In this document: one piece after another, positions 1-64,000 of the stretch | Position numbering within the stretch: position 1 is the stretch's first letter | Layout: each line of letters begins with the position of its first letter | From: Eledone cirrhosa | Taxonomy: Eukaryota | Reading direction: 5' to 3' | Assembly: GCA_964016885.1 (NCBI GenBank) | Contig: OZ024766.1 | Coordinates: 17,546,001-17,610,000 of the forward strand | DNA length: 64,000 nucleotides | Program-made: the position numbers and the translations under genes | Notes under the pieces: generated by a model | What the model saw: only the letters and a program-made list of their open reading frames with translations | Told to the model about the DNA's origin: nothing | The model's database searches: none

Positions 1-1452
1 AATGTAAATGGTATGTGAGGTTAAGCCTTTACTGTGACAATACAATAGTATATATAGAGTAATGTAAATGTTATGTGAGATATTATGTGAGGTAAAGCCT
101 TTACTGTGACAATACAATAGTATATATAGAGTAATGTAAATGTTATGTGAGGTATTATGTGAGGTAAAGCCTTTACTGTGACAATACAATAGTATATATA
201 GAGTAATGTAAATGTTATGTGAGATATTATGTGAGGTAAAGCCTTTACTGTGACAATACAATAGTATATATAGAGTAATGTAAATGTTATGTGAGGTATT
301 ATGTGAGGTAAAGCCTTTACTGTGACAATACAATAGTATATATAGAGTAATGTAAATGTTATGTGAGATATTATGTGAGGTAAAGCCTTTACTGTGACAA
401 TACAATAGTATATATAGAGTAATGTAAATGTTATGTGAGGTATTATGTGAGGTAAAGCCTTTACTGTGACAATACAATAGTATATATAGAGTAATGTAAA
501 TGTTATGTGAGATATTATGTGAGGTAAAGCCTTTACTGTGACAATACAATAGTATATATAGAGTAATGTAAATGTTATGTGAGGTAAAGCCTTTACTGTG
601 ACAATACAATAGTATATATAGAGTAATGTAAATGTTATGTGTGATATTATGTGAGGTAAAGCCTTTACTGTGACAATACAATAGTATATATAGAGTAATG
701 TAAATGTTATGTGAGGTAAAGCCTTTACTGTGACAATACAATAGTATATATAGAGTAATGTAAATGTTATGTGAGATATTATGTGAGGTAAAGCCTTTAC
801 TGTGACAATACAATAGTATATATAGAGTAATGTAAATGTTATGTGAGATATTATGTGAGGTAAAGCCTTTACTGTGACAATACAATAGTATATATAGAGT
901 AATGTAAATATTATGTGAGGTAAAGCCTTTACTGTGACAATACAATAGTATATATAGAGTAATGTAAATGTTATGTGAGATATTATGTGAGGTAAAGCCT
1001 TTACTGTGACAATACAATAGTATATATAGAGTAATGTAAATGTTATGCGAGATATTATGTGAGGTAAAGCCTTTACTGTGACAATACAATAGTATATATA
1101 GAGTAATGTAAATGTTATGTGAGATATTATGTGAGGTAAAGCCTTTACTGTGACAATACAATAGTATATATAGAGTAATGTAAATGTTATGTGAGATATT
1201 ATGTGAGGTAAAGCCTTTACTGTGACAATACAATAGTATATATAGAGTAATGTAAATGTTATGTGAGATATTATGTGAGGTAAAGCCTTTACTGTGACAA
1301 TACAATAGTATATATAGAGTAATGTAAATGGTATGTGAGGTTAAGCCTTTACTGTGACAATACAATAGTATATATAGAGTAATGTAAATGTTATGTGAGG
1401 TATTATGTGAGGTTAAGCCTTTACTGTGACAATACAATAGTATATATAGAGT
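1..1452 (-). repeat. 72-bp (with 60-bp variant) tandem satellite, reverse complement of the array at 51453-52795; runs off the window edge
   Basis: Repeating unit gtaaagcctttactgtgacaatacaatagtatatatagagtaatgtaaatgttatgtgag(atattatgtgag). Confidence 0.97.
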
Positions 1453-1454
1453 AG

Positions 1455-1640
1455 AGGGCATATTGTCTATATGCTTCAGCATGTACCCATGGGAGGTCGG
1501 GTACTCTGTATTACTGCGTGACGCCAGAGGTCATGGTCGTGTGTCATCGCCTTTGAGAGGTGTAATTGGGTAAGGTCGGCTTTTATCACCTCATCCCAGG
1601 TCATCTTGGGTCTCCCCACTCCGCGGTTTCCATCGACTTC
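1455..1640 (-). mobile_element. 5'-truncated RTE-clade LINE 3' end
   Basis: Translates EVDGNRGVGRPKMTWDEVIKADL...LWRHAVIQSTRPPMGTC*; near-identical to the C-terminus of the copy at 23865-24350. Confidence 0.9.
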
Positions 1641-2850
1641 AATATGTAGTAAAGGAGTGGGCACAAACTCCATACGATGGGCACAATGTAAATGTTGGGT
1701 ACATACACAAAAGATCATCATCATCATCATCATCAACGTTTAACGTCCGTGTTCCACGCTTGCATGGGTTTGGACGGGGGTTTTCCCACTTGAGGCAAGA
1801 GTGATTGTCTTGCTCGCATAGGACTGTCTGGCGGGTTTTCTACAGTTGGATGCCCTTCCTAACACCAACCACATTTACAGTGTGGGGCTGGGAGGTTTTT
1901 ACCGTGTTGCCTACACGGCCACATTACAGCGTGGACTGTCTGGCGGGTTTTCTACAGCTGGATGCCCTTCCTAACACCAACCACATTTACAGTGTGGGGC
2001 TGGGAGGTTTTTACTGTTGCCTACACGGCCACATTACAGCCTGGACTGTCTGGCGGGTTTTCTACAGCTGGATGCCCTTCCTAACACCAACCACATTTAC
2101 AGTGTGGGGCTGGGAGGTTTTTACTGTGTTGCCTACACGGTCACATTACAGTGTGGACTGTCTGGCGGGTTTTCTACAGCTGGATGCCCTTCCTAACACC
2201 AACCACATTTACAGTGTGGGGCTGGGAGGTTTTTACTGTGTTGCCTACACGGCCACATTACAGCGTGGACTGTCTGGCGGGTTTTCTACAGCTGGATGCC
2301 CTTCCCAACACCAACCACATTTACAGTGTGGGGCTGGGAGGTTTTTACCGTGTTGCCTACACGGCCACATTTACAGCGTGGACTGTGTGATTTTTTGTCG
2401 TGACACCTACACGTCTGGCGTGTTTTCTACGGCTGGATGCCCTTCCTAACACCAACCACATTTGCAGTGTGGAACTGGGAGGTTTTTACCGTGTTGCCTA
2501 CACGGCCACATTACAGCGTGGACTGTGTGTTTTTTTGTCGTGACACCTACACGATCTCATTTGTTTCGGCCTGGATGGTGTGGCACCAACATAACTTTGC
2601 ATTGAAGGGGGCGGTGTTGTGGGATAACGAGTAGACTAACAGGAAGGGAAGACTTTGTTTGTAGAAGTTATAAGAGTAACTGAGAGGAAGATAACCAGTG
2701 GTGCAAGCTTATTCCAGTCACAGGAATGGCCTATAGAAGTAGTTGATAGCTTCTGCTATCTAGGTGACTTAATCAGCAGTAAAGGAGAGTGCTCTGAGAG
2801 CATAATAGCTTGGGTAAGGATAGGATGGATGGAGTTTAGAGAACTGTGAT
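1641..2850 (+). mobile_element. Fragmented RTE LINE ORF (Cys-rich segment at 1641-1712, YLG region at ~2690-2850) interrupted by a (TGA)n-tailed retroposon
   Basis: ICSKGVGTNSIRWAQCKCWVHT at 1642-1708, then IEVVDSFCYLGDLISSKGECSESIIAWVRIGWMEFREL; these are typical RTE RT C-terminal motifs. Confidence 0.75.
1714..2640 (-). mobile_element. (TGA)n-tailed SINE/RTE 3' region with internal ~112-bp tandem array (1821-2545, about 6 copies)
   Basis: (cat)n-aacgtttaacgtccgtgttccacgcttgcatggg tail; the unit contains tttctacagctggatgcccttcctaacaccaac, shared with SINE family A. Confidence 0.85.
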
Positions 2851-63400: not shown

Positions 63401-63607
63401 AAGGGTGTCCCCGCTTCTATCTGGAGACAGAGTCCGAAGTCTGGTTCGTCTTTGTTCATCGACTTGTTGGAGTCTTTCATACTCGTCTCTGTCGCTGATT
63501 TCCAGTCTAAGGGTGTCCCCGCTTCTATCTGGAGACAGAGTCCGAAGTCTGGTTCGTCTTTGTTCATCGACTTGTTGGAGTCCTTCATACTCGTCTAAAA
63601 TGTACAC
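60452..63607 (-). CDS. 1051-aa repeat ORF (28 x 36 aa), in frame with upstream NS1; expression unknown
   Basis: 5 aa + 28 x EYE[R/G]LQQVDEQRRTRL[R/Q]TLSP[D/N]RSGDTLR[L/Q]EISDR[E/D] + 38-aa unique tail. The start codon is GTG, so it is probably the NS1 C-terminal tail rather than an independent gene. Confidence 0.45.
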   Translation of the reverse strand: MYILDEYEGLQQVDEQRRTRLRTLSPDRSGDTLRLEISDRDEYERLQQVDEQRRTRLRTLSPDRSGDTLRLEISDREEYERLQQVDEQRRTRLQTLSPDRSGDTLRLEISDREEYERLQQVDEQRRTRLQTLSPDRSGDTLRLEISDREEYERLQQVDEQRRTRLQTLSPDRSGDTLRLEISDREEYERLQQVDEQRRTRLQTLSPDRSGDTLRLEISDREEYEGLQQVDEQRRTRLQTLSPDRSGDTLRLEISDREEYEGLQQVDEQRRTRLQTLSPNRSGDTLRQEISDREEYEGLQQVDEQRRTRLRTLSPDRSGDTLRLEISDREEYERLQQVDEQRRTRLQTLSPNRSGDTLRQEISDREEYEGLQQVDEQRRTRLRTLSPDRSGDTLRLEISDREEYERLQQVDEQRRTRLQTLSPNRSGDTLRQEISDREEYEGLQQVDEQRRTRLRTLSPDRSGDTLRLEISDRDEYKGLQQVDEQRRTRLRTLSPDRSGDTLRLEISDREEYERLQQVDEQRRTRLRTLSPDRSGDTLRQEISDREEYEGLQQVDEQRRTRLRTLSPDRSGDTLRLEISDREEYEGLQQVDEQRRTRLRTLSPDRSGDTLRLEISDREEYEGLQQVDEQRRTRLRTLSPDRSGDTLRQEISDREEYEGLQQVDEQRRTRLRTLSPDRSGDTLRLEISDREEYEGLQQVDEQRRTRLRTLSPDRSGDTLRLEISDREEYEGLQQVDEQRRTRLRTLSPNRSGDTLRLEISDREEYEGLQQVDEQRRTRLRTLSPNRSGDTLRLEISDREEYEGLQQVDEQRRTRLRTLSPDRSGDTLRLEISDRDEYERLQQVDEQRRTRLRTLFPDRSGDTLRLEISDRDEYERLQQVDEQRRTRLRTLSPDRSGDTLRLEISDRDEYERLQQVDEQRRTRLRTLSPDRSWDTLRLEISDRDEYERLQQVDEQRRTRLRTLSPDRSGDTLRLEISDREEYERLQQVDEQRRTRLRTLSPDRSGDTLRQEISDREDDDSDKENDTRECRWRKYARLMNSNRNVPSPELFNENL
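60569..63592 (-). repeat. 108-bp tandem array, 28 copies, no indels
   Basis: 540-bp line periodicity (60601, 61141, 61681, 62221, 62761, 63301); 1008 aa = 28 x 36. Confidence 0.98.
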
Positions 63608-63610
63608 AAG

Positions 63611-64000
63611 TTAATCATCTGAAAAACTGCTATCTTCATTAATCATTTTGGAGAAGCGATGTTCATAGAAAAGTATATTCCATATGAATGGATTTAGCTT
63701 CTTTTTCACATATTTAAGGAACGGTGATGCTGTATTAAATGTGAATTCGGTGTACCTTGTAATGAAAGCCACCTCCAATAACGGTGCATTTTGATCGAAT
63801 TTGTGATTTGACGTTATAATTAACGGAGTTCTGTGGACAACCTGGTCTTGTTTGAATTTTATTGCGACCTCTCTATCAACACCTTCTGCTAATTTTTTGA
63901 AAGTCTGTAGAGTCTCAAGTGTAAAGTTTGGCTCCTCTATCAAACCTATTTCGACATTGATAAGGTTTTGGAATGGGAAGCTACTTGTTCCCTGAATCGT
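63611..64000 (-). pseudogene. NS1: Endogenous parvovirus/densovirus NS1 (SF3 helicase) C-terminal half; continues beyond the window
   Basis: Open from the edge: TIQGTSSFPFQNLINVEIGLIEEP (Walker B) ... FKKLAEGVDREVAIKFK (motif B') ... RTPLIITSN (motif C) ... AFITR. Confidence 0.88.

What the first reader, a model, noticed from the sequence alone, without database searches (positions are those of the whole stretch)
1..64000. Region-wide satellite formation: many element types have an internal or junction segment tandemly amplified in place
Seen: at least 15 unrelated arrays (units of 47, 49, 57, 72, 80, 81, 82, 90, 96, 108, 112, 120, 241 and ~760 bp). Most sit collinearly inside their source, which may be RTE CDS, SINEs, a MITE end, MULE, a zinc finger or viral NS1, with the source usually resuming after the array. 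Copies are highly similar. Inferred: a sequence-independent local tandem-duplication process, such as microhomology-mediated slippage or re-replication, is unusually active in this genome or chromatin domain and may drive genome expansion.
Basis: partly seen in the sequence, partly recalled or inferred. Interest (0 to 1): 0.7.

Follow-up and report, generated by a model that had tools for sequence, protein, structure and literature searches.

The report
Transposon-seeded tandem arrays, octopus-like genome
In this repeat-packed stretch of what looks like an octopus genome, pieces of jumping genes, a zinc-finger gene and an integrated virus have been copied head-to-tail many times by several already known routes, and the longest array carries a likely self-cutting RNA motif in each unit.

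Summary
The arrays are real: tandem repeats cover 45,215 of 64,000 bp, all 14 listed unit sizes exist, and 19 of 21 arrays measured have 94-99% identical units. In-place origin holds for 12 of 22 loci (14.8 kb), most cleanly the 108-bp array inside a parvovirus-like NS1 tail. One sequence-independent process is not supported. Seven of 12 testable junctions sit on 6-15-bp direct repeats (null 2.7%), five on 0-3 bp. Three units recur at several loci with the same junction: the 49-bp unit is an internal VNTR of one SINE family (1 to 52 copies), and the 72- and 96-bp units occur twice. The largest array (751-790 bp, 10.6 kb) sits in no identified source and carries a type I hammerhead motif in each unit, as non-LTR retrozymes do. 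Best reading: varied seeding, then ordinary homology-driven expansion in a decayed zinc-finger region of an octopod. The kind is known. The density is striking, but one window cannot show that it is genome-wide.

The parts
12..1453 (-). 72/60-bp array, copy A; runs off the window's left edge and is cut on the right by an RTE-like 3' end
   Evidence: 97.9% mean identity to copy B, 2 identical 72-bp and 1 identical 60-bp haplotypes shared
1821..2553 (+). 112-bp x5 then 141-bp x2 inside a SINE-tail copy; 7-bp and 1-bp junction repeats
   Evidence: both flanks align to the copy at 23580-23860
2838..4476 (+). 47/34-bp array from RTE-like ORF; source on the left only
   Evidence: tblastn of P0002 to 2712-2846 and to the units; right edge truncated
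5216..5553 (+). tRNA-headed SINE with a single 49-bp unit bounded by a 9-bp imperfect direct repeat (monomeric reference)
   Evidence: Rfam tRNA 5218-5275
11141..12998 (.). 83-85-bp array and its inverted 67-73-bp partner, head to head round a (TA)17 run
   Evidence: source unverified (resembles a Tc1/mariner end, recalled)
13496..14105 (+). 49-bp VNTR, at least 8 units, inside the SINE; 200-N gap at 13663-13862
16103..19620 (.). 179/31/23-bp (TA)n-rich arrays in two orientations
   Evidence: source unidentified
22180..23496 (-). 76-81-bp array from the 3' part of a second SINE; source resumes after a short insert
24828..25693 (+). 96-bp array (with 120/136-bp derivatives) in a LINE ORF end; unit bounded by a 15-bp direct repeat with 12 matches
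26146..28685 (-). 49-bp VNTR, about 52 units, with 147- and 343-bp higher-order periods; SINE resumes at 28848 after an insertion
30159..30382 (+). diverged 49-bp-family array, 4.5 units
30522..31606 (+). 120-bp x9 unit spanning flank DNA and a SINE end; blunt junction
   Evidence: left flank unverified; SINE identity recalled
32584..33756 (-). 81-bp degenerate C2H2 unit x14 between 84-bp-type fingers
   Evidence: Pfam zf-C2H2 E=4.8e-7 on the adjoining finger
34140..34692 (-). 49-bp VNTR, 11 units, inside the SINE
35689..46331 (-). 751-790-bp x14 array with a minimal type I hammerhead motif at each unit boundary; 3,070-bp near-identical internal duplication
   Evidence: core in 13 of 13, full descriptor in 11 of 13, 0 of 3,000 shuffles; Rfam HH9 18.9 bits, below its cut-off of 52
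46344..47378 (+). inverted partial copies of the 751-bp unit (97-105-bp repeats), interrupted by an insert with another hammerhead-like motif at 46517
   Evidence: 92-94% identity to unit positions 504-673
47580..48064 (-). 241-bp x2 in a MULE-like transposase relic; 3-bp junction repeat
   Evidence: reading frames continue on both sides; MULE label recalled, no Pfam support
48358..48978 (+). unamplified MITE-like copy (source of the 72-bp unit) holding two tandem SINEs with a 15-bp repeat three times
   Evidence: 46 of 53 identical to the 60-bp unit
49323..51041 (+). 57-bp x30 unit at a zinc-finger/RTE-like junction; no exact microhomology
   Evidence: left flank reads as C2H2, right flank matches P0002 at 85% over 26 aa
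51461..52794 (+). 72/60-bp array, copy B, just inside a MITE-like end; source resumes for about 45 bp; blunt junction
53790..54233 (-). 97-bp and 81-bp units in a second insertion of the same LINE
   Evidence: same 96/97-bp junction as 24828; units 95.8% alike between loci
56429..59170 (+). 80-87-bp x34 unit joining a SINE part to CT-rich DNA
59713..60431 (.). 89-93-bp x8 array just beyond the NS1 stop; 11-bp overhang; source unidentified
60567..63592 (-). 108-bp (36-codon) x28 array inside the C-terminal tail of an endogenous parvovirus-like NS1; the gene has a stop at 63611-63613, upstream of the array
   Evidence: P0021 residues 339-525 match before and 471-547 after the array
63593..64000 (-). 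NS1 helicase region of the endogenous viral element, cut by the window edge
   Evidence: Pfam Parvo_NS1 E=2.5e-5; 78% to a protein named 'nonstructural [Octopus vulgaris]'

Best explanation
This is a field of element-derived minisatellites and satellites in a decayed C2H2 zinc-finger region of an octopod genome, made in two steps. Birth, by several routes: (a) slippage or end-joining between short direct repeats already in the source (49, 96, 108, 112 bp; shown as junction repeats, mechanism inferred); (b) a target-site repeat (198 bp) or native finger repeats (81 bp); (c) blunt or 1-3-bp joins (57, 72, 120, 141, 241, 54 bp); (d) a hammerhead-bearing, probably Penelope-derived unit (751-790 bp; motif shown, Penelope origin inferred). 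Some seeds travelled inside their element or were copied to a second locus (49, 96, 72 bp; shared junctions shown). Growth: once two copies exist, unequal exchange or repair-synthesis slippage adds single units and blocks of units in place (higher-order periods shown, mechanism inferred). No selection removes the products because the sources are already dead.
For: Junction repeats of at least 6 bp in 7 of 12 testable arrays against a null of 2.7% (p=8e-9); 4 of 9 after dropping the 57, 90 and 198-bp arrays (p=6e-5); exact matches of at least 6 bp in 3 of 12 (p=1e-5). One SINE family with heads 95-98% and tails 95-99% alike carries 1, 1, 1, at least 8, 11 and 52 units. NS1 is collinear on both sides of its array. 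Higher-order periods: 3,070 bp with 5 mismatches in 2,293 bp, 343 bp with 12 in 937, 144 bp with 0 in 420; 751-bp units 6-8 differ from units 10-12 by 1, 0 and 0 substitutions while other pairs differ by 8-28. The 72-bp arrays share haplotypes but not their order. Hammerhead descriptor: 11 of 13 units, 0 of 3,000 shuffles. Both direct-repeat-seeded TE minisatellites and arrays propagated inside an element are described for human TEs (PMC3389668).
Against: Five of 12 junctions have 0-3 bp and the 57-bp junction has no exact match, so direct repeats explain only about half of the births. The set of 12 leaves out arrays with a truncated, low-complexity or natively repetitive edge (47, 72 copy A, 80, 81, 81/82, 85, 105, 179, 751 bp). 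The 57-bp score (7 matches in 10) is probably CT-rich noise. No empty orthologous site or raw read could be seen. The 3,070-bp near-identical block could be a false duplication in the assembly. The hammerhead region folds no better than shuffles (z=0.43) and is below Rfam cut-offs. No Penelope protein match was found for the unit.
Confidence: 0.7

Rival explanations
1. A single, unusually active, sequence-independent amplifier (for example local re-replication or a repair pathway) acts on this domain or genome and turns almost any segment into an array.
For: 18 of the 22 loci listed have at least 5 units, whereas most unexplained human TE-derived repeats have two (PMC3389668 section 3.4; criteria differ). 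Sources are very different in kind, about half the junctions are blunt, and copy number ranges from 1 to 52 among SINE copies about 96% alike.
Against: Junction repeats are enriched; three units are shared between loci; the largest array has a hammerhead; unit identities span 0.875-0.988, which does not look like one event; one window chosen for being repetitive is no rate estimate.
Confidence: 0.15
2. The arrays are mostly dispersed satellite families or VNTR-bearing elements that arrived ready-made.
For: The 49, 72 and 96-bp junctions are identical at several loci, with identical haplotypes shared for 49 and 72 bp. The 751-bp unit meets the operational definition of a non-LTR retrozyme.
Against: The 108-bp unit lies inside a single NS1 with both flanks continuing; the 57-bp unit spans a locus-specific junction; derivative units are locus-specific (81 bp at 53790 only, 120/136 bp at 24828 only).
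Confidence: 0.1
3. Assembly artefact: arrays were inflated or falsely duplicated during long-read assembly or gap filling.
For: A 200-N gap lies inside one array; a 3,070-bp block is nearly identical to its neighbour; units vary in homopolymer length.
Against: Units carry many distinct haplotypes (30 of 31, 20 of 29, 18 of 27, 12 of 13) with variants shared at regular periods, which consensus errors would not create. At most some copy numbers are wrong.
Confidence: 0.05

Closest known systems
TE-derived minisatellites (Ahmed and Liang 2012, PMC3389668; review PMC9659126)
   Same: Units cut from inside TEs, expanded locally; some seeded by 5-20-bp direct repeats; some propagated inside the element (LTR12); most births unexplained by direct repeats.
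   Different: There 23% of human mini/satellites, about 0.32% of the genome, mostly two units. Here about 55% of the window, mostly 5-52 units, and the sources include a zinc finger and a viral NS1.
Non-LTR retrozymes (Cervera and de la Pena 2020, PMC7229834; Li et al. 2026, bioRxiv 10.64898/2026.07.22.740005)
   Same: Tandem, non-coding, AT-rich unit with a type I hammerhead in consecutive copies; length within the reported 51-972 bp; Li et al. also propose local amplification of a Penelope terminal sequence.
   Different: The motif here is of the minimal kind that Cervera ties to Penelope-like elements, not the canonical kind of their ~300-bp retrozymes; cleavage and circular RNA are untested; no cephalopod appears in the main text of either paper.
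Penelope-like element partial tandems with an inverted 5' copy (Craig et al. 2021, PMC8557442)
   Same: Hammerhead in the repeat, tandem copies, an inverted partial copy adjoining the 5' end in RNA sense, (TA)n-rich setting.
   Different: 14 copies of equal length and no RT or GIY-YIG match found; the inverted copy is only 92-94% identical to the array.
SINEs with an internal VNTR (SVA as described in PMC3389668; mouse B1-derived VNTR listed in PMC9659126)
   Same: Composite SINE whose internal unit varies in number between insertions.
   Different: tRNA-derived head and a 49-bp unit in the tail region; unrelated sequence.

Membership tests
TE-derived minisatellite | unit homologous to part of an interspersed element | tested here: met
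   47, 49, 57, 72, 80, 81/82, 96 and 112-bp units match unamplified copies in the window or database relatives
TE-derived minisatellite | array lies within or at the edge of the source element | tested here: met
   both flanks for 12 of 22 loci, one flank for several more
TE-derived minisatellite | flanking direct repeats of 5-20 bp (Haber-Louis route) | tested here: inconclusive
   present in 7 of 12 by scored extension and 3 of 12 exactly; absent in 5
TE-derived minisatellite | expansion after insertion shown against an orthologous locus | not testable with these tools
   no eukaryote genome collection; paralogous SINE copies with 1-52 units are an indirect substitute
Non-LTR retrozyme (751-790-bp array) | type I hammerhead in at least two consecutive tandem units | tested here: met
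   11 consecutive internal units pass my descriptor; the two outer ones have a stem II change; criterion; Rfam only sub-threshold
Non-LTR retrozyme (751-790-bp array) | motif folding energy below -5 kcal/mol | tested here: met
   -8.6 kcal/mol for 55 nt; not better than shuffles for 76 nt
Non-LTR retrozyme (751-790-bp array) | unit length and low GC | tested here: met
   751-790 bp, within 51-972 bp but above the classical ~300 bp; GC 33-34% against <45%
Non-LTR retrozyme (751-790-bp array) | no protein-coding capacity | tested here: inconclusive
   only short frames; a sub-threshold PARP match in 4 of 7 copies overlaps the motif; no other credible hit
Non-LTR retrozyme (751-790-bp array) | self-cleavage and monomeric circular RNA | not testable with these tools
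   needs a cleavage assay and RNA data
Non-LTR retrozyme (751-790-bp array) | homology to the pseudo-LTR of an autonomous Penelope-like element | not testable with these tools
   no repeat library or host genome available
VNTR-bearing SINE (49 bp) | tRNA-derived head | tested here: met
   Rfam tRNA above cut-off at 5218 and 13334
VNTR-bearing SINE (49 bp) | same internal unit in variable number among insertions | tested here: met
   1, 1, 1, at least 8, 11, 52 units
VNTR-bearing SINE (49 bp) | target-site duplications marking independent insertions | tested here: inconclusive
   flanks differ between copies but are microsatellite-rich; no clear duplication seen by eye
Endogenous parvoviral element | NS1 SF3 helicase homology | tested here: met
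   Parvo_NS1 23.9 bits against a cut-off of 20; 24 homologues
Endogenous parvoviral element | capsid gene or terminal hairpins | not tested
   the element runs off the window; the 90-bp unit's source was not identified

The most novel reading that the evidence does not exclude
Octopod genomes, or their zinc-finger cluster domains, have an unusually strong growth step that turns almost any first duplication (blunt, microhomology-seeded, viral or ribozyme-bearing) into a 10-50-copy array within the short life of a young SINE family. The same step would turn over C2H2 finger arrays and add measurably to genome size, and its largest product here would be a transcribed, self-cleaving 760-nt retrozyme, a form I found no report of in cephalopods.
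Probability: 0.2. Interest if true: 0.7.

Novelty: new member of a known kind. Interest (0 to 1): 0.38.

Why it matters
TE-derived minisatellites, VNTR-bearing SINEs and hammerhead satellites are all described, so the kind is not new. The window is still a useful natural experiment. It holds one SINE with 1 to 52 units, arrays whose unamplified sources lie nearby, and blunt and repeat-seeded junctions side by side, which bears on the open point that known models explain only 6% of TE-derived repeat births in human (PMC3389668). If the density proves general for octopods, tandem growth would join transposition as a cause of their large genomes and could be linked to zinc-finger turnover. My literature searches returned no study of octopus minisatellites or retrozymes, but the library lacks most subscription papers, and hammerheads as such are reported from giant squid (PMC6962438).

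Tried and rejected
Rfam at curated thresholds found only two tRNA heads. The E-value scan of 12900-49000 listed 150 of 203 matches, nearly all miRNA models on (TA)n DNA and all below cut-off, which I discarded. Pfam gave no family for the RTE-like, MULE-like, LINE-end or 90-bp frames. The 18 relatives of the RTE-like frame are unnamed apart from one 'hypothetical protein', and their names could not be looked up. A PARP reading of part of the 751-bp unit scored 16.7 bits against a cut-off of 26.7, appeared in 4 of 7 copies, and had no support in PDB or the protein set; left unresolved, probably chance. The one hit to another frame of the unit (P0043) is an unrelated repetitive protein whose score sums five short stretches; rejected. 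The 20-bp overhang of the 105-bp array was dropped from the microhomology count because its left edge is the repeat flanking an insertion. Several right-edge coordinates were off by one and were corrected; the null was kept. Automatic splitting of the 47-bp array failed. Re-replication was considered and rejected, since it predicts long duplicated tracts across element borders, not separate short units. The search for octopus parvoviral elements in print returned 0 papers. The O. bimaculoides genome paper was not held, and the supplements of PMC7229834 and of the bioRxiv preprint could not be read; they may list cephalopod retrozymes. Viral and metagenome contig collections were not searched, so the NS1 lineage and the 90-bp unit's source stay open.
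Full report
Observation. Tandem Repeats Finder marks 45,215 of 64,000 bp; about 35.6 kb is non-microsatellite by my filter, and five base-shuffled windows gave 1, 0, 0, 0 and 0 rows. Units are 93.8-98.8% alike in 19 of 21 arrays measured; the exceptions are the small 30159 array and the 47-bp array, where my splitting failed. There is one 200-N gap, inside a 49-bp array.

Setting. The NS1 piece at 63614-64000 hits Pfam Parvo_NS1, and its closest named relative is a protein annotated in Octopus vulgaris (78%). 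C2H2 relics occur at several places. With the style of the SINEs and (TA)n tracts (recalled), this points to a decayed zinc-finger region of an octopod. Clustered C2H2 genes are reported for octopods (PMC9795677, passages). The species was not determined.

Are the arrays unrelated? Only partly. Self-comparison and alignments put the 49, 112 and 141-bp units in one SINE-tail sequence, the 80, 81/82 and 198-bp units in a second SINE, the 47 and 57-bp units in RTE-like DNA, and the 105-bp unit inside the 751-bp unit. The names RTE, MULE and MITE are recalled from motifs; Pfam did not supply them.

Are they in place? By manual classification of 22 loci, the source continues on both sides for 12 (14,800 bp), on one side or unverifiably for 8 (13,227 bp), and 2 (10,975 bp) form the hammerhead family. 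The clearest case is viral: the natural homologue P0021 matches the window with residues 339-525 before the 108-bp array and 471-547 after it, ending at the natural stop. The unit is 36 codons of the NS1 tail, and the gene already has a stop upstream. The 57-bp unit joins a C2H2 frame on the left to an RTE-like frame on the right. The 47-bp array, in contrast, ends mid-unit against unrelated DNA.

Shared junctions. The 49-bp unit is an internal VNTR of a tRNA-headed SINE. Copies with heads 95-98% and tails 95-99% alike carry 1, 1, 1, at least 8, 11 and 52 units. The 72/60-bp array occurs at 12-1453 and, inverted, at 51461-52794, with 97.9% mean identity and three identical haplotypes but a different order of variants. 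An unamplified source lies at 48358-48978 (46 of 53 identical), so the array was born once and reached two loci. The 96-bp junction is shared by two insertions of one LINE, each with its own derivative units.

Microhomology. I compared the natural left and right edges of 12 arrays with 50,000 random position pairs from 16,378 bp of non-array DNA. Scored overlaps were 9 (49 bp), 7 (112), 15 (96), 11 (90), 6 (108), 15 (198), 10 (57; no exact match, likely noise), 3 (241), 2 (54), 1 (141), 0 (120) and 0 (72). Seven of 12 reach 6 bp against 2.7% expected (p=8e-9); 4 of 9 without the 57, 90 and 198-bp arrays (p=6e-5); 3 of 12 on exact matches (p=1e-5). Arrays with truncated, low-complexity or natively repetitive edges were left out, and the 105-bp array was dropped. 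Birth thus depends on sequence in about half the cases and is blunt in the rest.

The largest array. The 751-790-bp unit has a hammerhead core on the minus strand at 13 of 13 unit boundaries. A full type I descriptor (stem I 6 bp, stem II 4 bp, palindromic stem III, GUA) passes in the 11 internal copies and in 0 of 3,000 dinucleotide shuffles of the unit. Rfam gives only a sub-threshold HH9 match (18.9 bits, E=0.022 on 211 bp), and the region folds no better than shuffles. An inverted partial copy adjoins the 5' end in RNA sense. This meets the operational definition of a non-LTR retrozyme in Li et al. 2026 (abstract, introduction, part of methods, sections 12 and 16 read), who also propose local amplification of a Penelope terminal sequence. 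Cervera and de la Pena 2020 (passages and discussion) favour reverse transcription of circular RNA. Craig et al. 2021 (passages) describe partial tandems with inverted 5' copies and (TA)n targeting. DNA-level growth is shown either way: units 6-8 differ from units 10-12 by 1, 0 and 0 substitutions against 8-28 for other pairs, a 3,070-bp period, unless that block is an assembly error. No protein origin was found for the rest of the unit.

Mechanism. Shown: units derive from neighbouring sources; junction repeats are enriched; some junctions are shared; higher-order periods exist in the 49, 72, 47, 108 and 751-bp arrays. Inferred: first duplications came by slippage or end-joining at short repeats, by blunt joins, from target-site or finger repeats, or through Penelope biology, and unequal exchange or repair slippage then enlarged them in unconstrained DNA. 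I put this at about 0.7. A single domain-wide amplifier (0.15), ready-made families (0.1) and assembly inflation (0.05) are the rivals.

Comparison with what is known. Ahmed and Liang 2012 (abstract, introduction, second part of results) found 23% of human mini/satellites TE-derived, expanded locally, sometimes carried inside the element, with only 6% explained by known initiation models and most of the rest having two units. A 2022 review (passages) tabulates SINE-, LINE ORF2- and MITE-derived arrays in many taxa. The giant squid paper (passages) reports 235 hammerheads and about 0.89% satellite and simple repeats by a different method. The O. minor paper (passages) gave no tandem-repeat figure in the passages returned. 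Other papers were seen only as search listings. What differs here is density and copy number: 18 of 22 loci have at least 5 units. One selected window cannot show whether that is typical.

Verdict. Novelty: new member of a known kind. Interest 0.38; 0.7 if a general amplifier were confirmed (probability about 0.2).

Noticed in passing
window 12999-13250: Inverted pair of minimal hammerhead motifs (13054 minus, 13082 plus) with 6-7-bp stem I, plus a partial third copy; looks like a Penelope-like terminal repeat with 5' inversion.
   Followed up: partly
window 9177 (minus) and 46517 (minus): Two more hammerhead-like motifs with unrelated stems; the second has CCGAAGA in place of the usual core.
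   Followed up: partly
window 12217-12250 and about 17164-17310: The 85-bp and 179/31-bp arrays switch orientation at (TA)n runs, which suggests fold-back template switching or paired insertions into (TA)n.
   Followed up: no
window 36419-36473 and 45599-45653: The first and last hammerhead copies of the 751-bp array share a stem II change that the 11 internal copies lack; the only change in the core falls on its free position.
   Followed up: partly
window 36454-36603 (minus) and equivalents: Sub-threshold Pfam PARP match whose end overlaps the hammerhead core.
   Followed up: partly
window 29911-30140, 32400-35480, 49100-49330, 54750-55080: Degenerate C2H2 finger relics on the minus strand at several places, and an exon-like stretch at 29911; the window looks like a decayed zinc-finger cluster.
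   Followed up: partly
window 4612-4870 / 5552-5807, 5820-5960, 19868-20020: Further inverted duplications and long palindromes; the 19868 motif recurs at about 17320 and 21818.
   Followed up: no
window 6332-6494, 7432-7541, 10228-10366, 21604-21811, 31769-32145: Two-copy duplications of 72, 54, 75, 100 and 175 bp, possibly early stages of array birth.
   Followed up: partly
window 51202-51322 and 1642-1704: Short matches to the PHD-finger end of P0004, an RTE-like relative, next to RTE-like fragments.
   Followed up: no
window 54250-54700 and 55083-55960: Further LINE-like ORF relics on the minus strand without Pfam match.
   Followed up: no
window 59370-59520: GC-rich stretch with a short direct repeat downstream of the NS1 and the 90-bp array; may belong to the viral element.
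   Followed up: no
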